DNA of 64,000 bases, from positions 364,020 through 428,019 of the forward strand of contig JALRHH010000001.1 of assembly GCA_023253175.1 (NCBI GenBank), given 5' to 3'. A model generated the notes under the pieces. It was given only the letters and a program-made list of their open reading frames with translations. It was not told the DNA's origin and did not search any database. Positions 6,931-61,421 of the stretch are shown one piece after another; positions within the stretch are counted from its first letter, which is position 1, and the number at the start of each line of letters is the position of its first letter. The position numbers were made by a program, and so were the translations under genes. The stretch is from Candidatus Saccharimonadia bacterium (lineage in GTDB: Bacteria; Patescibacteriota; Saccharimonadia; Saccharimonadales; JALRHH01).

Positions 6931-6990
6931 GGAGGGGTCGCCTAGTGGCCTATGGCGCACGCTTGGAAAGCGTGTTGGGTTTACGCCCTC
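6931..6990 (+). pseudogene. tRNA-Ser(GGA)-like 5' part with no T-stem 3' strand or acceptor 3' strand
   Basis: GGAGGGG-TC-GCCT-AGTGGCCTA-TGGC-G-CACGC-TTGGAAA-GCGTG, then variable-arm hairpin GGGT-TTAC-GCCC and CGAGG. The required 3' acceptor strand CCCCTCC is absent downstream. The anticodon stem-loop matches the intact tRNA-Ser at 7111 exactly. Confidence 0.6.
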
Positions 6991-7090
6991 GAGGGTGAAG
7001 ATCACCAGTGGTGATCTGCAAGGGAACCAACTCTTGAAAACTTGTTTTCAAAGATGTTGTTCCGGGGTCGCGGAACGTGACCGAATCCAG
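6986..7090 (+). repeat. Structured repeat, copy A (family also at 15222-15338, 46228-46340, 46353-46460)
   Basis: CCCTCGAGGGTGAAGATCACC-AGT-GGTGATCTGCAAGG, a long hairpin tipped by TGAAAACTTGTTTTCA (7035-7050), the GAA-loop hairpin GGTCGCG-GAA-CGTGACC, then GAATCC. Confidence 0.7.
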
Positions 7091-7110: not shown

Positions 7111-7200
7111 GGAGAGGTGTCCGAGTGGTTGAAGGAGCACGCTTGGAAAGCGTGTGTGCAGGCAACTGTACCAGGAGTTCGAATCTCCTTCTCTCCGCCA
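7111..7200 (+). tRNA. tRNA-Ser (anticodon GGA), CCA encoded
   Basis: GGAGAGG acceptor, D-loop GAGTGGTTGAA, anticodon loop TTGGAAA, long variable arm, T-arm AGGAG-TTCGAAT-CTCCT, then TCTCTCC-G-CCA. Confidence 0.95.
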
Positions 7201-7437
7201 GAATAAAAACAGTCAGGCCATTTGTCTGGCTATTTTTATTCCCCACGAAGAAAAGATTCAAACCAGGCTCGATGGTACGGCCGGTGGTCGATCCGGACCG
7301 GATTGCCATGGCCTTGGGGTGATAGTCAGGAGAACCGCATCTTGACGTCATTTCTAGGTCGAATTGATTAACACGGAGTCCAGAATAGGGTTGACATACT
7401 TGATATTTCGGCGCAATGTGTATTTTAAGAGCTATAT

Positions 7438-14707: not shown

Positions 14708-15169
14708 TTATTTTCTTTTTGAAAGTGGGGCAGTTGAGGCAGCAATGCCGATAGCAACAGCGATCACGACTGCGTTCTTGATGATGTACTGTCCTTCGAG
14801 CGTCGGTACCAGTAAGGACTGCCATGTATGTTCGGGTACCAATACAAGCGGCGAACAAACGATTGCCATATGAAGGAGCAGTAGCGGCACAACGATTCTT
14901 GTAAGCCTCGGGAATAGAAACAGTAACCCCACGATACATTCCAAAACTGCAATTACATAAAACAGTGGCTCAAAATACTGAGCACCGACCGTTTTCGCAG
15001 TCAGCGCCTGCGCAAGTGGACTTGCCGGGCTTAAGCCCAGTAGTTTTATAAGCCCAAACCAAAAGAAAATAAGAAACACCGAGAAACGGGCAACTGGATT
15101 AAACGTGCGTCCAAAAAACGCAATTAATCTCAAATCAAGACTGTAAATATCCAGCTTTTTGTGTTTCAT
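14708..15169 (-). CDS. Small integral membrane protein (DoxX/DUF417-like)
   Basis: 153 aa with 4 hydrophobic helices. Confidence 0.55.
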   Translation of the reverse strand: MKHKKLDIYSLDLRLIAFFGRTFNPVARFSVFLIFFWFGLIKLLGLSPASPLAQALTAKTVGAQYFEPLFYVIAVLECIVGLLFLFPRLTRIVVPLLLLHMAIVCSPLVLVPEHTWQSLLVPTLEGQYIIKNAVVIAVAIGIAASTAPLSKRK

Positions 15170-15183
15170 CTTACAGAGCTATT

Positions 15184-15213
15184 AAAACAAAAACACTCTG
15201 CTTTCGCAAAGTG
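15184..15213 (-). terminator. Rho-independent terminator closing the tRNA-Leu transcription unit
   Basis: On the minus strand, CACTTTGC-GAAA-GCAGAGTG is followed by TTTTTGTTTT. Confidence 0.8.
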
Positions 15214-15221
15214 CTTATGCT

Positions 15222-15338
15222 TGGTACCGCGGGCCGGACTTGACCTACCTTCGGCAGGCCCGAAATTTCGCCATTGAAAACAAGTTTTCATCGGAAAGTT
15301 TCCTTGCAGATTGCCACAGGCAATCTTCACAGCACGAG
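15222..15338 (-). repeat. Structured repeat, copy B, ending in a tRNA-like T-loop/acceptor/CCA
   Basis: On the minus strand: GTGAAGATTGCC-TGT-GGCAATCTGCAAGG, a hairpin tipped by TGAAAACTTGTTTTCA (15275-15290), GGCCTGCC-GAA-GGTAGGTC, then AAGTCCGGCCCGCGGTACCA. Confidence 0.7.
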
Positions 15339-15408
15339 CTAATGCTCACTGGATTTTGACGTTTACGGCACAACCTTCGGGTTGTGCGCCCTGGCGTTTA
15401 AAAATATG

Positions 15409-15493
15409 TGGTGGGCGAGGAGGGACTTGAACCCTCAATCCGTAAGGAACGCGATTTTGAGTCGCGCGCGTATACCAATTCCGCCACTCGCCC
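15409..15493 (-). tRNA. tRNA-Leu (anticodon CAA), CCA encoded
   Basis: GGGCGAG-TG-GCGGAATTGGTATACGCG-CGCGA-CTCAAAA-TCGCG, variable arm TTCCTTACGGATT, T-arm GAGGG-TTCAAGT-CCCTC, then CTCGCCC-A-CCA. Confidence 0.95.
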
Positions 15494-15514
15494 ATCATAT
15501 ATTTTTAAAATACT

Positions 15515-15552
15515 GCCCTGGCGGTATTGTCTACCAATTCCACCACCGCGGC
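15515..15552 (-). pseudogene. tRNA-Leu-like 5' fragment (acceptor 5' strand plus D-arm)
   Basis: The minus strand reads GCCGCGGTGGTGGAATTGGTAGACAATACCGCCAGGGC. GTGGTGGAATTGGTAGAC matches the intact tRNA-Leu (GTGGCGGAATTGGTATAC) with 2 mismatches. GCCGCGG is complementary to CCGCGGT-A-CCA at 15222-15232. Confidence 0.55.
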
Positions 15553-15579
15553 TTACTCAGAATCTAACGGGACCATTTT

Positions 15580-15652
15580 ACTATAGAAGTTGAACGGAGG
15601 GAAATGAAGCTTGCTTCAATTTTCCGAGTACTACGACGTAAACGAAGTTATA
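15580..15652 (-). promoter_or_regulatory. Promoter/operator-like module, copy 1 (copy 2 at 61346-61421)
   Basis: On the minus strand, -35 is TTCATT (15603-15608), followed by 17 nt and -10 TATAGT (15580-15585). The near-palindrome GAAGCAAGCTTC overlaps -35. The module is about 85 percent identical to the copy upstream of ftsI. Confidence 0.5.
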
Positions 15653-15717
15653 AGTAATAGACATTCCATAGTACATACGCTTAAATTGCCTCTAATAAGA
15701 TATAATGTAAGTCAGAA

Positions 15718-46227: not shown

Positions 46228-46340
46228 TCCTCAGAGTATGAAGACTGCCAGTGGCTAACAGCAAGGTCATCTTCTCCTGAAAACTTGTTTTCATGGATGA
46301 AATGACGGGCTCGCCGAAGGTGAGTGGGCACTTCTCAGAC
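46228..46340 (+). repeat. Structured repeat, copy C1
   Basis: TCCTCAGAGTATGAAGACTGCC-AGT-GGCTAACAGCAAGG, a hairpin tipped by TGAAAACTTGTTTTCA (46278-46293), then GCTCGCC-GAA-GGTGAGT. Confidence 0.7.
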
Positions 46341-46352
46341 CAACTAAAAAGA

Positions 46353-46460
46353 GCCCTCAGAGGGTGAAAAATCCCTGTGAGATTTTGCAAGGAAATCTAC
46401 TCTTCAAAACTTGTTTTGAAAGATGTAGTTTTGAGGCCACAGAATGGGGCTGAGGCGCCG
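46353..46460 (+). repeat. Structured repeat, copy C2 (tandem to C1)
   Basis: GCCCTCAGAGGGTGAAAAATCCC-TGT-GAGATTTTGCAAGG, a hairpin tipped by TCAAAACTTGTTTTGA (46404-46419, compensatory G/C swap), then GCCACA-GAA-TGGGGC. Confidence 0.7.
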
Positions 46461-46473
46461 CTTTTACGAAGAC

Positions 46474-46863
46474 AAAAAAAGAGCCGTCAGAGGGGGTGGG
46501 CACCGCTGACAGCTCATTTCATGGCTCGAAACGTGTTCGAGCCGGGGAATCACCCTTCAACCCACCCGAGCGAAACATCATCGCCTAACGTCTAGTGGCG
46601 TGTGTCTGCAGAAGCAATCATTTAGACTCGCTTTGATCGGGAGCCGGGGGCGTTACCTCGTAACGTCCGGGGATCTGTTAAAGGGGTTAGTATGTTTTAG
46701 AACGTCTTGCAAACAAGTCACAAGAGCAAAGAGTAAGTGGAGGGTAACAACTTCTAATTGGCGCGCTCTAAAACACTCTAACGTTCATCTCCTAACAAGT
46801 AGGGGACGAATGCTATAAATGGGGGTTTAAAAGGTGCGAAAGCGTCATTACGAACGCTTACAG
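46474..46863 (-). ncRNA. Candidate ~390-nt non-coding transcript bounded by a promoter and a terminator; family unknown
   Basis: Near-consensus promoter at 46870-46898. Terminator GAGCTGTCAG...CTGACGGCTC followed by T7 at 46474-46515. No ORF longer than 20 codons. Contains hairpins such as 46644-46672. Confidence 0.5.
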
Positions 46864-46869
46864 GTTGTA

Positions 46870-46898
46870 ATATTAGCAAATTTGTTTCCTAATGTCAA
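46870..46898 (-). promoter_or_regulatory. Sigma-70-type promoter
   Basis: On the minus strand: TTGACA (46893-46898), 17 nt, then TAATAT (46870-46875). Confidence 0.6.
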
Positions 46899-46962
46899 TA
46901 CTTAAACACTATTTTGTGTTTTTAGCGAAAATGTAACTGTACTATATTTTACCACTAGCGTA

Positions 46963-47910
46963 ATGAATATTCATCTGTTAATATTTATGGTTATTGCACT
47001 TTTGCCAGGGGTCTATACAATGAGATTACATACGAAGAGCAAAGCCCCTCAAATGAAAATTTCACGTATTTCAGCAGATCACACCCTATACCCCAAGCGG
47101 CTGCATACCATTACAGACTACCCAAAACAGCTCTATATAGCGGGCGAATTAGATATAGAGAGCCGTCTAACACTTGCGGTAGTAGGCAGCCGCAAAGTAA
47201 CACCCTACGGAAGGCATGTCACTGAACTTCTGGTCCGTGAGGCTGCCAAGCAGGGCATTGTCATTGTCAGCGGCCTTGCACTCGGTGTAGATGCCATCGC
47301 CCACCAAGCAGCACTGGCAGAGCGGGGCACGACCATAGCGGTGCTTCCGTGTGGCCTTGATACCATGTACCCAACAAGTCACCACCACCTGGCAAAGCAA
47401 ATCCTAGACCAAGGTGGGGCACTCGTCAGTGAGTACTCAGAAGGCACCAAACCTTTTAAACTAAATTTCATCGCGCGTAACCGCATTGTTGCTGGATTAG
47501 CCGATGCCGTGCTTATAACAGAGGCGGCGGGCAAAAGTGGCACACTCCATACCGCAAACTTTGCCCTAGAGCAGGGCAGGACGGTCATGGCCGTGCCAGG
47601 AAACATCACAAGTGAGCAGTCGCGGGGCACAAATAACCTTATTAAAATGGGAGCCGTGCCTGTTACTGATATTACAGATATACTGGCCGCCATGGGCCTT
47701 GAAAACCGTGGGGCAATAGAGCGACTCTTGCTTGGTGATACAGAAGAGGAGACCCGCATACTAAAACTCCTGAGTAGCGGCATATCTGACGCAAGTGAAT
47801 TGCTTCATAAAAGCGAGCTTGATCCTTCACTATTCAATCAGTCGCTAACCATGCTTGAAATTAATGGCAAGGTTCGTCCTTTGGGCGCGGGGCATTGGGG
47901 CATCGCATGA
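46963..47910 (+). CDS. dprA: DNA-processing protein DprA (Smf)
   Basis: LAVVGSRKVTPYGRHVT...IVSGLALGVDAIAHQAAL...GTTIAVLPCGLD. The true start may be an internal ATG (47020 or 47053). Confidence 0.9.
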   Translation: MNIHLLIFMVIALLPGVYTMRLHTKSKAPQMKISRISADHTLYPKRLHTITDYPKQLYIAGELDIESRLTLAVVGSRKVTPYGRHVTELLVREAAKQGIVIVSGLALGVDAIAHQAALAERGTTIAVLPCGLDTMYPTSHHHLAKQILDQGGALVSEYSEGTKPFKLNFIARNRIVAGLADAVLITEAAGKSGTLHTANFALEQGRTVMAVPGNITSEQSRGTNNLIKMGAVPVTDITDILAAMGLENRGAIERLLLGDTEEETRILKLLSSGISDASELLHKSELDPSLFNQSLTMLEINGKVRPLGAGHWGIA

Positions 47911-61345: not shown

Positions 61346-61421
61346 AGTATACAAGCTGCACGGAGGAAAATGAAGCTTGCTTCTTTTTCCGAGTACTGCG
61401 CCGTAAACACGAAGTGTTATA
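61346..61421 (-). promoter_or_regulatory. Promoter/operator-like module, copy 2 (copy 1 at 15580-15652)
   Basis: On the minus strand: -35 TTCATT (61369-61374), 17 nt, -10 TATACT (61346-61351). GAAGCAAGCTTC overlaps -35. The ftsI ATG lies about 10 nt after -10. Confidence 0.5.

What the first reader, a model, noticed from the sequence alone, without database searches (positions are those of the whole stretch)
15184..15552. tRNA-Leu(CAA) nested between 9-bp direct repeats inside a second, disrupted tRNA-Leu-like gene that also carries the structured repeat
Reading the minus strand, the order is:
1. 15552-15515 is a tRNA-Leu-like 5' fragment (GCCGCGG-TG-GTGGAATTGGTAGAC...).
2. A 9-bp direct repeat follows (plus-strand GCCCTGGCG at 15515-15523, repeated at 15388-15396).
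3. The repeats bracket a 118-bp cassette, 15397-15514. It holds the intact tRNA-Leu(CAA) at the tip of complementary AT-rich flanks (TTTAAAAATATATG and CATATTTTTAAA).
4. After the second repeat come a GCACAACC-CGAA-GGTTGTGC hairpin and repeat copy B.
5. The 3' end reads GTCAAGT-CCGGC-CCGCGGT-A-CCA. That is a near-canonical T-loop and an acceptor 3' strand complementary to the GCCGCGG at 15552.
6. A GAAA-tetraloop terminator closes the unit at 15184-15213.

The matching outer acceptor strands, the duplication-like 9-mers and the single terminator argue for one transcription unit. In it, an old tRNA-Leu gene has been invaded twice, once by the repeat and once by a tRNA cassette.
Basis: partly seen in the sequence, partly recalled or inferred. 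Interest (0 to 1): 0.7.

Follow-up and report, generated by a model that had tools for sequence, protein, structure and literature searches.

The report
Working tRNA nested inside broken tRNA
In this Saccharibacteria genome the original leucine-tRNA gene is cut into pieces by three self-folding inserts: one carries the replacement tRNA, and another is a 90-base three-hairpin element that sits at the same T-loop position of tRNA copies beside tRNA genes across this bacterial group, an arrangement I found described nowhere.

Summary
The inner tRNA-Leu(CAA) lies at 15493-15409 (-). The sequence around it is the ortholog of a single tRNA-Leu(CAA) gene that is uninterrupted at the same locus in two relatives (L123, L125). 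74 of 75 retained outer bases match L123.

The outer gene is split by three insertions:
- a helix-closed cassette carrying the inner tRNA, between positions 24 and 25;
- a hairpin, between positions 32 and 33;
- an 88-nt three-hairpin element (SE), in the T arm.

The same composite is kept in two other lineages (L127, L149). There the outer acceptor halves are unchanged and the inserted helices show compensatory changes. A single terminator follows the unit.

SE is a family: 63 further copies were found in 52 Saccharibacteria loci. 23 of its 34 base pairs covary. It always sits between T54 and T55/C56 of a tRNA-derived T arm, on the same strand as a neighbouring intact tRNA, at fixed spacing.

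Half of the tRNAs surveyed have a copy of their own 3' end about 160 nt downstream. No transposase or integrase is linked. There is no Rfam, phage or plasmid match, and I found no literature.

The 9-bp repeat is not a target-site duplication: its right copy is the outer tRNA's own positions 25-32. The function of SE is unknown. I favour a tRNA-framed structured RNA over a purely selfish insertion.

The parts
15575..15608 (-). Upstream block, conserved in part in orthologous loci, with a likely promoter: TTCATT, 17 nt, TATAGT/TAAAAT, about 20-30 nt before the outer 5' end
   Evidence: Block present upstream of the tRNA-Leu in L123, L124, L125 and L126; only TAAAAT is shared with L127, which diverges here. 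The consensus scan did not call it, so promoter function is inferred.
15528..15552 (-). Outer tRNA-Leu(CAA) piece 1: acceptor 5' strand, D stem and D loop (positions 1-24/25)
   Evidence: 25/25 identical to the intact tRNA in L123 and L125 and to nested L127
15509..15528 (-). Hairpin H1 (AAUAC / GUAUU). Its loop holds the left 9-mer CGCCAGGGC (15523-15515).
   Evidence: A hairpin at this place in L127, L126 and L149 has different stem sequences, all complementary. The loop 9-mer occurs only in the window.
15496..15509 (-). 5' strand of the helix that encloses the inner tRNA (UUUAAAAAUAUAUG)
   Evidence: Pairs with 15408-15397. The helix is kept with different sequence in L127 (CUUUAAAAACAAGUG / CAUGUUUUUAAG) and L149 (AUUUCGUUU / AAACGAAAU).
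15409..15493 (-). Inner, intact tRNA-Leu(CAA) with encoded CCA: the working gene
   Evidence: ARAGORN; Rfam RF00005 60 bits, E=1.8e-10; 85/85 identical in L127
15397..15408 (-). 3' strand of the helix that encloses the inner tRNA (CAUAUUUUUAAA)
15388..15396 (-). Outer tRNA piece 2: positions 25-32 (CGCCAGGGC, mutated from CGCCAGAC).
   Evidence: L149 has CACGCCAGAC here, identical to positions 23-32 of the intact L125 tRNA. L127 has CGCCGGGGC and L126 has CGCCCGGGC.
15360..15387 (-). Hairpin H3 (GCACAACC-CGAA-GGUUGUGC) plus CGUAAACG, inserted between outer positions 32 and 33
   Evidence: Unique in the window. Present with compensatory stems in L127, L126 and L149.
15332..15359 (-). Outer tRNA piece 3: anticodon-loop 3' part including CAA, anticodon-stem 3' strand, variable arm, first two T-stem bases (positions 33-50)
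   Evidence: 27/28 identical to L123. The variable-arm hairpin GAGC-AUUA-GCUC serves as the helix just upstream of SE.
15244..15331 (-). Structured element SE (copy B): three hairpins P2, P3 and P4, replacing CGGT of the outer T stem/loop
   Evidence: R1 96 bits. Family covariation: 23 of 34 pairs with compensatory changes and 96.6% of cells paired, against 80% in shuffles and 29-48% in slid controls. The orthologous copy in L127 scores 69 bits.
15222..15243 (-). Outer tRNA piece 4: T-loop 3' part, T-stem 3' strand, acceptor 3' strand, A73, CCA
   Evidence: 22/22 identical to L123, L125 and nested L127. Pairs with 15552-15546 in every fold.
15191..15216 (-). Intrinsic terminator (GAAA loop, T run). 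The only one in the unit.
   Evidence: The same terminator follows the intact tRNA in L125.

Best explanation
WHAT IT IS
The locus is one tRNA-Leu(CAA) transcription unit of a Saccharibacteria (CPR/Patescibacteria) genome. The ancestral gene (outer) survives as four pieces, separated by three self-folding insertions:
1. a helix-closed cassette between positions 24 and 25, which carries a complete, diverged tRNA-Leu(CAA) (inner);
2. a hairpin between positions 32 and 33;
3. an 88-nt three-hairpin element (SE) in the T arm.

SE belongs to a family found across Saccharibacteria. It always sits exactly between T54 and T55/C56 of a tRNA-derived T arm. There U54 closes hairpin P2 and U55 closes hairpin P4. 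It is always on the same strand as an intact tRNA of the same kind and at stereotyped distance from it.

HOW IT WORKS
Inferred:
- One promoter and one terminator give a single precursor.
- RNase P and 3' trimming release the inner tRNA, which does the decoding.
- The remainder can no longer be a tRNA, because the anticodon stem and the T-stem 5' strand are gone.
- That remainder stays closed by the outer 7-bp acceptor stem plus ACCA and by the helix that flanked the inner tRNA. It carries SE as a tRNA-framed structured RNA that is kept by selection.

Shown: anatomy, orthology to an intact gene, conservation and covariation, family distribution, and the insertion site.
Inferred: transcription and processing, and that the framed SE RNA has a function of its own. 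I cannot name that function.

ORIGIN (inferred)
An insertion-with-duplication process with a period of about 180 nt places such elements in the T loop of a redundant tRNA copy. Here the redundant copy became the outer shell, and the inner copy later diverged in its stems.
For: 1. Intact orthologs at the same locus.
- L123 and L125 carry the uninterrupted tRNA.
- Retained outer bases are 74/75 identical to L123.
- ARAGORN restores a tRNA-Leu(CAA) when the 12 lost bases are put back.

2. The same composite occurs elsewhere.
- It is present in L127 (sortase only 76% identical) and L149.
- The outer 5' piece is 25/25 identical and the 3' piece 22/22 identical in L127. The locus was found through the protein, so this is unbiased.
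- Helices H1, H3 and the tRNA-flanking helix differ in sequence but stay complementary.

3. There is a single terminator, after the outer 3' end.

4. SE structure is under selection.
- 34 pairs; 23 have compensatory changes.
- No shuffle (0 of 500) reaches the observed values.
- Slid controls drop to 29-48% paired.
- Conserved G-U pairs in P4 mean the tRNA-sense strand is the constrained one.

5. Family distribution.
- 63 SE copies lie in 52 loci.
- Every copy that lies near a tRNA is co-oriented with it.
- The tRNA end lies 60-80 nt before the SE start, or the SE end lies 37-51 nt before the tRNA start.
- The junction table puts SE between T54 and T55/C56 next to 17 different anticodons.

6. 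Census of 69 tRNAs.
- 34 have a copy of their own 3' end 153-177 nt downstream.
- 9 have a copy of their 5' end 176-195 nt upstream.
- These include tRNAs that carry other inserted element families.
- All three tRNAs of the window show the pattern.

7. The 3' fragment tracks species-specific changes of its cognate tRNA acceptor stem. This holds for the Val(tac), Gln(ctg) and Ser(cga) sets.

8. Copies within a genome are only 74-83% alike. This is unlike a recently active MITE.

9. No transposase, integrase or TnpB is enriched among 150 neighbouring ORFs.

10. These are very small, gene-dense genomes (contigs of 644-950 kb). Inert DNA is not expected to persist there.
Against: - No expression or end-mapping data were available. 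Transcription, RNase P processing and stability of the remainder are all inferred.
- The function of SE is not identified.
- Class-2 copies (5' tRNA part + SE) lack an acceptor 3' strand. A closed acceptor frame is therefore not universal.
- The window's closest relative by sortase (L123, 95%) has the uninterrupted gene, while more distant lineages have the nested one. This requires allele exchange or repeated site-specific insertion, and it fits a mobile or homing element at least as well.
- Some SE copies next to different tRNAs in different genomes are 92-93% identical, which suggests movement between contexts.
- Conservation of the outer acceptor halves could be driven at the DNA level rather than the RNA level.
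Confidence: 0.6

Rival explanations
1. The outer gene is a dead pseudogene plus a selfish element. SE is a miniature, non-autonomous mobile element, moving as DNA hairpins or as RNA, that homes into the T loop of tRNA genes. Insertions survive only where a second tRNA copy exists. The outer gene is the corpse and the inner tRNA is the rescue. The hairpins are kept because the mobility machinery needs them, not because an RNA works for the cell.
For: - Presence/absence polymorphism between close relatives: the window against L123 and L125.
- Extreme site specificity, between T54 and T55, in many different tRNAs and in one non-tRNA hairpin upstream of dprA.
- Several unrelated element families occupy the same site.
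- Near-identical SE copies lie next to different tRNAs in different genomes (92-93%).
- A module can be lost between direct repeats: the module after the inner tRNA is present in L126 and absent in the window and L127.
- An archaeal precedent exists for tRNA disruption by an integrating element that leaves a tRNA fragment (PMC3293823).
Against: - No transposase or integrase is linked to any of about 47 copies examined.
- There are no terminal inverted repeats and no target-site duplication. Four bases are replaced in the filled-versus-empty comparison.
- Copies within a genome are old (74-83% identity).
- The nested architecture, including helices outside SE and both outer acceptor halves, is conserved with compensatory changes between lineages whose sortase is only 76% identical.
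- 3' fragments co-evolve with their tRNA.
- SE is absent from viral contigs, phages and plasmids.
Confidence: 0.25
2. These are remnants of integrase-mediated integration at the tRNA T loop. The full tRNA plus the downstream copy of its 3' end are attL and attR of a tiny integrated element (a cis-mobilisable, attP-only element). SE would be its arm region, perhaps folding as single-stranded DNA like integron attC or the CTX phage attP.
For: - Textbook geometry at class-1 loci: an intact tRNA, then about 160 nt, then a direct repeat that begins in the T loop and ends at or a few nt after CCA.
- The constant period of about 180 nt, for both 3'-copy and 5'-copy topologies, fits single-crossover integration of a circle of fixed size.
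- An inverted T-arm copy next to the direct one could fold into a duplex mimic of the target.
- (From established knowledge: tRNA T-loop sublocation of tyrosine integrase attB sites.)
Against: - SE interrupts the would-be core itself, between T54 and T55, in every copy.
- No integrase lies nearby.
- In the window's Leu locus SE lies inside the original gene, with no duplication and no inverted copy.
- The covarying stems with conserved G-U pairs are not what double-stranded protein-binding arms show.
- A 180-bp double-stranded circle is implausibly small.
Confidence: 0.07
3. SE is the scaffold of a guide RNA, analogous to TnpB/IscB omega RNAs or IS110 bridge RNAs. The tRNA fragment directly 3' of it would be the guide. 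It would direct a trans-encoded nuclease or recombinase to the uninterrupted tRNA allele, so that the interrupted allele spreads by homing.
For: - Scaffold-then-flank layout: the 20-23 nt after SE match a tRNA gene exactly.
- In the window the putative guide matches the outer-type allele found intact in relatives. The resident working tRNA (inner) differs in exactly that stretch and would be immune.
- Nested and intact alleles are distributed patchily among relatives.
Against: - No TnpB, IscB, Cas or IS110 gene occurs among 150 neighbouring ORFs or in the parts of the window examined.
- At class-1 loci the guide would match the adjacent essential tRNA (self-targeting).
- Class-2 and dprA-linked copies have unrelated 3' flanks.
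- There is no Rfam match to any known guide scaffold.
Confidence: 0.05
4. The outer gene is still a gene. The three inserts would be removed like archaeal multi-intron or split tRNAs, or like group I introns, giving a second functional tRNA-Leu(CAA).
For: - All three inserts are self-contained helical modules whose ends are brought together.
- The acceptor halves are perfectly conserved.
- Patescibacteria tRNA genes are known to hide self-splicing group I introns (PMC13011429).
Against: - After removal of the inserts no tRNA is found.
- The anticodon-stem 5' strand (CCAGG against UCCAG) and three of five T-stem 5' bases are lost. The same is true in L127 and L149.
- No group I intron signal appears at E<=10.
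- SE-bearing copies elsewhere are always truncated tRNAs beside an intact one.
- Bacteria are not known to have a bulge-helix-bulge endonuclease (established knowledge).
Confidence: 0.03

Closest known systems
Disrupted archaeal tRNA genes (multi-intron, split and fragment-plus-replacement loci, e.g. Caldiarchaeum tRNA-Thr; PMC3293823)
   Same: - A tRNA gene interrupted at several non-canonical positions, including the D and T arms.
- A tRNA fragment left beside a working copy.
- A mobile element proposed as the cause.
- Heterogeneity between members of a population.
   Different: - The archaeal cases are spliced or trans-spliced back into a tRNA by the bulge-helix-bulge endonuclease, or involve a 1.8-kb element with a recombinase.
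- Here the organism is bacterial and no recombinase is linked.
- The outer gene cannot be restored by excision.
- A whole tRNA sits inside another.
- The T-loop insert is a conserved 90-nt RNA-like element.
Group I introns in bacterial tRNA genes, including Patescibacteria (Nakagawa et al. 2026, PMC13011429)
   Same: Structured insertions in tRNA genes of the same phylum that defeat standard tRNA finders.
   Different: - Those introns lie in the anticodon loop (e.g. 35/36), are over 200 nt long, have the group I core and self-splice to a working tRNA.
- SE is 88-95 nt, lies between 54 and 55, and has no group I signal.
- SE always accompanies a truncated or dead copy.
Integrative elements at tRNA 3' ends (attL/attR repeats of the T-loop-to-CCA segment)
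   Same: An intact tRNA followed by a direct repeat of its own 3' end that starts in the T loop. The repeat stays identical to the tRNA.
   Different: - The intervening DNA is only about 160 nt and carries no integrase.
- The repeat's T loop is itself occupied by SE.
- The spacing is stereotyped.
- There is an extra inverted T-arm copy.
- At the Leu locus there is no repeat at all, only the original gene.
Bacterial miniature structured repeats (REP/BIME, Correia, RUP, BOX, ERIC; IS200/IS605-derived palindromic elements)
   Same: Short, non-coding, multi-copy, hairpin-rich, strand-specific elements with no gene of their own.
   Different: - SE has no terminal inverted repeats or target duplication.
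- It has a single-nucleotide-precise target in the tRNA T loop.
- Copies within a genome are old and covary like an RNA family.
- It is conserved across many Saccharibacteria MAGs rather than across a species.
tRNA-framed RNAs (tmRNA, bacterial Y RNA YrlA, viral tRNA-like structures)
   Same: An acceptor stem ending in NCCA frames a non-tRNA RNA domain. This may provide tRNA-type end processing and stability.
   Different: - Those keep an intact T arm and elbow and replace the anticodon arm.
- Here the T loop is the place of insertion.
- There is no sequence or Rfam similarity.

Membership tests
tRNA (Rfam RF00005): inner gene | Cloverleaf scoring above the gathering threshold, with an anticodon | tested here: met
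   60 bits against a threshold of 29. ARAGORN calls tRNA-Leu(caa).
tRNA: outer gene, as a present-day functional tRNA | Complete cloverleaf, as encoded or after removal of the inserts | tested here: not met
   No Rfam hit at E<=10. ARAGORN finds nothing after in-silico removal of the inserts. The anticodon-stem and T-stem 5' strands are lost.
tRNA: outer gene, as a descendant of a tRNA-Leu(CAA) gene | Orthology to an intact tRNA at the syntenic position | tested here: met
   74/75 retained bases are identical to L123:1748-1834. The promoter block is the same as in L123 and L125, and the terminator is the same as in L125 (L123 has a different one).
Group I intron | Conserved catalytic core (Rfam RF00028) | tested here: not met
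   No match in 15100-15700 at E<=10.
Transposon/MITE insertion (for the tRNA cassette) | Target-site duplication at the borders of the inserted DNA | tested here: not met
   The right 9-mer is the target tRNA's own positions 25-32. The left 9-mer is absent in L126, L127 and L149.
MITE (for SE) | Terminal inverted repeats, target duplication, near-identical copies within a genome | tested here: not met
   Filled versus empty site: CGGT is replaced and there is no duplication. The four window copies are 74-79% alike.
Integrated element with tRNA att sites | Direct repeat of the tRNA 3' end flanking the element | tested here: inconclusive
   Met at 34 of 69 surveyed tRNAs. At the window's Leu locus, however, the 3' piece belongs to the outer gene and differs from the inner tRNA's end.
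Integrated element with tRNA att sites | Integrase or recombinase gene inside or beside the element | tested here: not met
   None among 150 ORFs flanking 47 SE copies. Neighbours in the window are a sortase and a 153-aa protein with no Pfam match.
Structured RNA family (generic criterion) | Base pairs supported by compensatory changes on the transcribed strand | tested here: met
   23 of 34 pairs, with controls far lower. G-U pairs are present on the tRNA-sense strand.
OMEGA/TnpB-type guide RNA | Cognate RNA-guided nuclease encoded in the genome | not testable with these tools
   Only 64 kb of the genome and 8-kb flanks were available. None was seen there.
Archaeal-type spliced or split tRNA | Bulge-helix-bulge motifs at the junctions and a splicing endonuclease | not tested
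   The junction helices have no obvious 3-nt bulges. No search for an endonuclease was run.

The most novel reading that the evidence does not exclude
Saccharibacteria keep, beside most of their tRNA genes, a previously unrecognised class of tRNA-framed small RNAs. Each is a partial copy of the neighbouring tRNA whose T loop, exactly between U54 and U55, carries a roughly 90-nt conserved multi-hairpin domain. There are several families of this domain; SE is one. The partial copy co-evolves with its cognate tRNA. The nested Leu(CAA) locus is the extreme form: the frame is the whole ancestral gene and the working tRNA has moved inside it. These RNAs would then have a tRNA-specific cellular role, such as sensing, decoy, quality control or RNA-guided homing at tRNA genes, rather than being junk.
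Probability: 0.4. Interest if true: 0.9.

Novelty: new variant of a known kind. Interest (0 to 1): 0.78.

Why it matters
A working tRNA gene nested inside the conserved shell of its own ancestor has, as far as I could find, not been described in bacteria.

It also exposes a genome-wide rule in an ultra-small, host-dependent lineage. tRNA genes there come with a stereotyped module of about 160-180 nt. The module contains a partial self-copy whose T loop holds a covarying RNA-like element.

- If these modules are functional RNAs, they would be the first candidate small RNAs for Saccharibacteria. A TM7x transcriptome paper states that none is validated. They would also show a new way of using the tRNA frame.
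- If they are selfish, they define a protein-less element with single-nucleotide target specificity for the most conserved loop in biology. They would also suggest how split or disrupted tRNA genes can arise in bacteria.

There is a practical point as well. Such loci confuse tRNA annotation, and they may break assemblies: the L124 contig ends inside the outer 5' piece.

Tried and rejected
- **Group I intron or any Rfam family for the outer sequence or SE.** Nothing at gathering thresholds in the whole window, nor at E<=10 around the locus.
- **tmRNA.** ARAGORN found none.
Removing 15397-15523 gives no tRNA. Removing my three inserts also gives none, unless the 12 lost bases are restored.
- **Near-identical strains.** L001 and L002 were 100% identical at the locus and therefore uninformative.
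- **Phage, plasmid and viral-contig origin of SE or the inner tRNA.** No matches. The 14 pattern hits in IMG/VR are not SE.
- **Gene neighbourhood enrichment.** No mobility gene was found. Only dprA recurred, and it marks a separate non-tRNA SE locus.
- **The 22-nt outer 5' pattern in metagenomes.**
  - It mostly returned ordinary tRNA-Leu genes of unrelated taxa: 101 of 122 hits.
  - It added one nested locus, L149.
- **Ideas considered and dropped.**
  - The antisense T-arm piece as a retroviral-type primer-binding site. Its acceptor-complementary part is the least conserved.
  - A hammerhead or box C/D reading of CCGAUGA in P3. That stretch covaries as a helix.
  - IS91-type GTTC targeting. 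The junction is between T54 and T55, not after GTTC.
- **Literature.** Eight full-text searches found no description of the arrangement.
- **Two orthologous loci (P0015, P0027)** could not be read because the sample files were too large.
Full report
**1. What is in the sequence**

Read on the minus strand, the unit runs from G15552 to A15222.
- ARAGORN and Rfam find one tRNA in it, tRNA-Leu(CAA) at 15493-15409 (60 bits).
- A permissive Rfam scan of 15100-15700 (E<=10) finds nothing else. In particular it finds no group I intron.
- The only intrinsic terminator on this strand between 15100 and 15750 is at 15216-15191, just after the outer 3' end.

**2. Organism**

- The flanking genes are a sortase, a PEGA-domain protein, YecM and an RNase T-like exonuclease.
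- The exact sortase protein occurs on contigs of 644 kb and 950 kb.
- Its homologs and the element-bearing loci come from Candidatus Saccharibacteria/Saccharimonadales MAGs.
- I therefore treat the window as a Saccharibacteria (CPR/Patescibacteria) genome.

**3. The decisive comparison**

I used the sortase gene as a syntenic anchor and fetched orthologous loci.

Intact loci:
- L123 (sortase 95% identical) and L125 (83%) carry the same upstream block.
- At the same distance behind it they carry an uninterrupted 87-88-nt tRNA-Leu(CAA). Its sequence begins GCCGCGGTGGTGGAATTGGTAGACACGCC and ends GTGCCGGTTCAAGTCCGGCCCGCGGTACCA.

The window's outer sequence is this gene in pieces:
- 15552-15528 = positions 1-24/25;
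- 15396-15388 = positions 25-32, mutated;
- 15359-15332 = positions 33-50;
- 15243-15222 = positions 55-76.

Counting the three clean pieces, 74 of 75 bases equal L123. ARAGORN recovers tRNA-Leu(CAA) only when the 12 lost bases are restored. So the outer sequence descends from a real tRNA-Leu gene with the same anticodon as the inner one.

**4. Three insertions, not two**

Nested relatives show where the breaks are: L127 (sortase 76%), L126 (77%), and L149 (found by a metagenome scan for the outer 5' 22-mer).

- *Cassette, 15527-15397.* It consists of a hairpin, a helix strand, the inner tRNA and the complementary helix strand. It lies between positions 24 and 25.
- *28-nt hairpin module, 15387-15360.* It lies between positions 32 and 33.
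- *SE, 15331-15244.* It replaces CGGT at the T stem/loop.

In L149 the sequence after the cassette is CACGCCAGAC, exactly positions 23-32 of the intact L125 gene. This identifies the window's right-hand 9-mer (CGCCAGGGC) as outer-tRNA sequence. The left-hand 9-mer occurs only in the window, in the loop of hairpin H1. L126, L127 and L149 have other loops there. The 9-bp repeat is therefore not an insertion footprint. On its own it is also not statistically unusual: 13% of shuffles contain a repeated 9-mer.

**5. The composite is old and constrained**

Between the window and L127:
- the inner tRNA is 85/85 identical;
- the outer 5' piece is 25/25 identical;
- the outer 3' piece is 22/22 identical;
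- H1, H3, the helix enclosing the inner tRNA, and SE all differ in sequence while remaining complementary.

An RNAalifold run on the window, L127 and L149 gave the following:
- It keeps the outer acceptor stem, the inner cloverleaf, H3, the variable-arm hairpin and the SE hairpins.
- 19 of the predicted pairs change on both sides in at least one sequence.

L127 was found through a protein, so the conservation of its outer pieces is not a search artefact. L149 was found through the 5' piece itself, so only its 3' piece counts. The last 16 nt of that piece (T-stem 3' strand through CCA) are identical.

With neighbouring proteins at 76% identity, 47 of 47 identical non-coding bases is not neutral decay.

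L126 shows a variant. It lacks the outer T arm. The inner tRNA is followed by its own terminator, an inverted T-arm copy, a different structured element and a copy of the inner 3' end. That module is absent in the window and L127, as expected from loss or gain between direct repeats.

**6. SE is a family with RNA-like covariation**

- The window has four copies: 6990-7084 (+), 15335-15241 (-), and 46233-46327 and 46359-46453 (+).
- A pattern scan of one genome per species returned dozens of Saccharibacteria copies.
- A 37-sequence alignment gives three hairpins (P2, P3, P4) and 34 pairs, 23 of them with compensatory changes.
- 96.6% of cells are paired, against 80% in shuffles and 29-48% when partners are slid.
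- Conserved G-U pairs in P4 show that the tRNA-sense strand is the constrained one.
- The covariance model R1 finds 63 copies in 52 related loci.
- It finds none in the viral contigs that matched the pattern.
- BLAST finds nothing in phage or plasmid collections.

**7. Where SE sits**

Thirty-three copies lie next to tRNAs of 17 different anticodons. In these:
- the left flank is the T-stem 5' strand;
- SE begins with the T that corresponds to T54;
- the right flank starts at T55 or C56.

In the consensus structure U54 pairs with A31 to close P2. U55, or a C in its place, pairs with G79 to close P4. Every copy near a tRNA is on the tRNA's strand.

There are two topologies:
- *Class 1:* tRNA, terminator, an inverted and diverged copy of the tRNA's 3' half, a short loop, the sense T-stem 5' strand, SE, then the T-loop-to-CCA fragment. 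The tRNA end lies 60-80 nt before SE.
- *Class 2:* promoter, the tRNA 5' part through the T-stem 5' strand, SE, a T-loop remnant, an inverted T arm, a -10 box, then the full tRNA. The SE end lies 37-51 nt before the tRNA.

These topologies are described. Some tRNAs have both (L027 Leu(gag), L101 Val), which gives the same shell-around-a-gene topology as the Leu(CAA) locus. In the window the inner tRNA end lies 74 nt before SE, the canonical class-1 spacing.

**8. The architecture is general**

Among 69 tRNAs with enough flank in Saccharibacteria loci:
- 34 have a copy of their last 16 nt (at most 2 mismatches) 153-177 nt downstream;
- 9 have a copy of their first 22 nt 176-195 nt upstream.

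Many of these carry other inserted elements in place of SE. All three tRNAs of the window conform.
- tRNA-Ser(GGA) has a diverged 5' copy plus SE 180 nt upstream. It also has an antisense T arm, another element and a TCGAAT remnant 159 nt downstream.
- tRNA-Glu(CTC) has an antisense T arm, a 170-nt different element and a GATTCCCCGTGAG fragment.

The fragments follow species-specific changes in their tRNA's acceptor stem, for example in the Val(tac), Gln(ctg) and Ser(cga) sets.

**9. What SE is not linked to**

- Among 150 ORFs flanking 47 copies, no transposase, integrase, TnpB or reverse transcriptase is enriched.
- The only recurrent neighbour is dprA. It marks a separate locus where SE sits in 5' partial copies of a conserved, unannotated non-coding region of about 480 nt.

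**10. Interpretation**

*Shown:*
- the outer sequence is a broken ortholog of a tRNA-Leu(CAA) gene;
- the inner tRNA has the same anticodon and is the only intact copy in the unit;
- the break points are occupied by self-folding modules;
- the composite is conserved with compensatory changes;
- SE is a covarying, strand-specific family with a single-nucleotide-precise position in tRNA-derived T arms.

*Inferred:*
- one precursor is made;
- RNase P and 3' trimming release the inner tRNA;
- the rest persists as a tRNA-framed RNA carrying SE, closed by the outer acceptor stem and by the helix that flanked the inner tRNA.

I favour this over pure decay for four reasons:
- the outer halves and all helices are conserved;
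- SE copies within a genome are old;
- the fragments co-evolve with their tRNAs;
- these genomes are extremely compact.

I cannot name the function.

*Main rival:* a selfish T-loop-homing element with rescue by a second tRNA copy. It is favoured by three observations:
- the closest relative, L123, has the intact allele;
- unrelated elements share the site;
- some SE copies next to different tRNAs are 92-93% identical.

Three readings remain possible but weaker:
- an integrase att-remnant reading;
- a guide-RNA reading, in which the SE scaffold is followed by a tRNA fragment acting as guide. In the window that fragment matches the intact allele of relatives but not the resident inner tRNA;
- a spliced-tRNA reading. 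This one is contradicted by the lost stem strands.

**11. Novelty**

Eight full-text searches found no description of this arrangement.

The nearest papers were:
- group I introns at 35/36 in Patescibacteria tRNAs (PMC13011429). This paper mentions no T-loop insertions or duplicated fragments;
- a model of archaeal tRNA disruption by an integrating element (PMC3293823).

A TM7x transcriptome preprint states that no small RNAs have been validated in that organism.

I rate the locus as a new variant of known kinds, namely disrupted tRNA genes and short structured repeats. There is a substantial chance that the modules are something categorically new.

Noticed in passing
window 6931-7084 (+) and 7236-7370 (+): A diverged 5' copy of tRNA-Ser(GGA) runs straight into an SE copy 180 nt upstream of the real tRNA-Ser (7111-7200). 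It has a different acceptor and D arm but an identical anticodon arm. Downstream of the real gene lie an inverted T arm, another structured element and a TCGAAT remnant at +159.
   Followed up: partly
window 37560-37375 (-): After tRNA-Glu(CTC) and its terminator come three things. First, an inverted T-arm copy. Second, a structured element of about 170 nt that is unrelated to SE; its core GCGCACAGAAGCUUGCUUCGAGCAC is also found in the outer T loop of L149. Third, a GATTCCCCGTGAG fragment of the tRNA's own T loop, T stem and acceptor.
   Followed up: partly
window 46233-46965 (+); L050:270-855; L091:4655-5410: - Two tandem SE copies are each preceded by AAAAAGAGCCnTCAGAGGG.
- A third, SE-free copy follows and opens a non-coding region of about 480 nt.
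- That region has strongly conserved blocks (GGGGGTGGGCACCGC, CACCCTTCAACCCACC, GTGGAGGGTAAC, CTCTAAAAC, TGTCAATACTT).
- It lies upstream of dprA in three genomes and has no Rfam match.
- It is possibly an unannotated RNA gene that SE has also targeted.
   Followed up: partly
L123:578-1619: In the relative with the intact tRNA-Leu, two extra genes lie directly after the tRNA terminator: a Peptidase_M78/IrrE-like gene and a 167-aa ORF. They are absent from the window. This looks like a small island at the tRNA 3' flank.
   Followed up: no
L124:1-20: The contig of the 92%-identical sortase ortholog ends inside the outer 5' piece (GCCGCGGTGGTGGAATTGGTAGA). This suggests that the nested or repeated structure breaks short-read assemblies.
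   Followed up: no
window 15582-15617 vs 61348-61383: A 36-nt stretch overlapping the presumed promoter of the Leu unit is 89% identical to a second place in the window.
   Followed up: no
L023, L075, L078, L080, L082 (Fibrobacter succinogenes); L026, L033, L063, L085, L122 (Bacteroidales MAG): The pattern scan also hit a different multi-copy repeat in other phyla (GTGCAAGGYGAGAGCAGAGCGAAAACTTGTTTTC...GCCGAGCCGCAGCC). It is unrelated to SE.
   Followed up: no
L126:1640-1760; L106:7700-7840; L069:1440-1600: At least three further families of structured inserts occupy the same T-loop position downstream of tRNA-Leu(CAA) and tRNA-Val(tac) in other species. Several of them have hairpins with the same CC-AGU-GG loop as SE P2.
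   Followed up: partly
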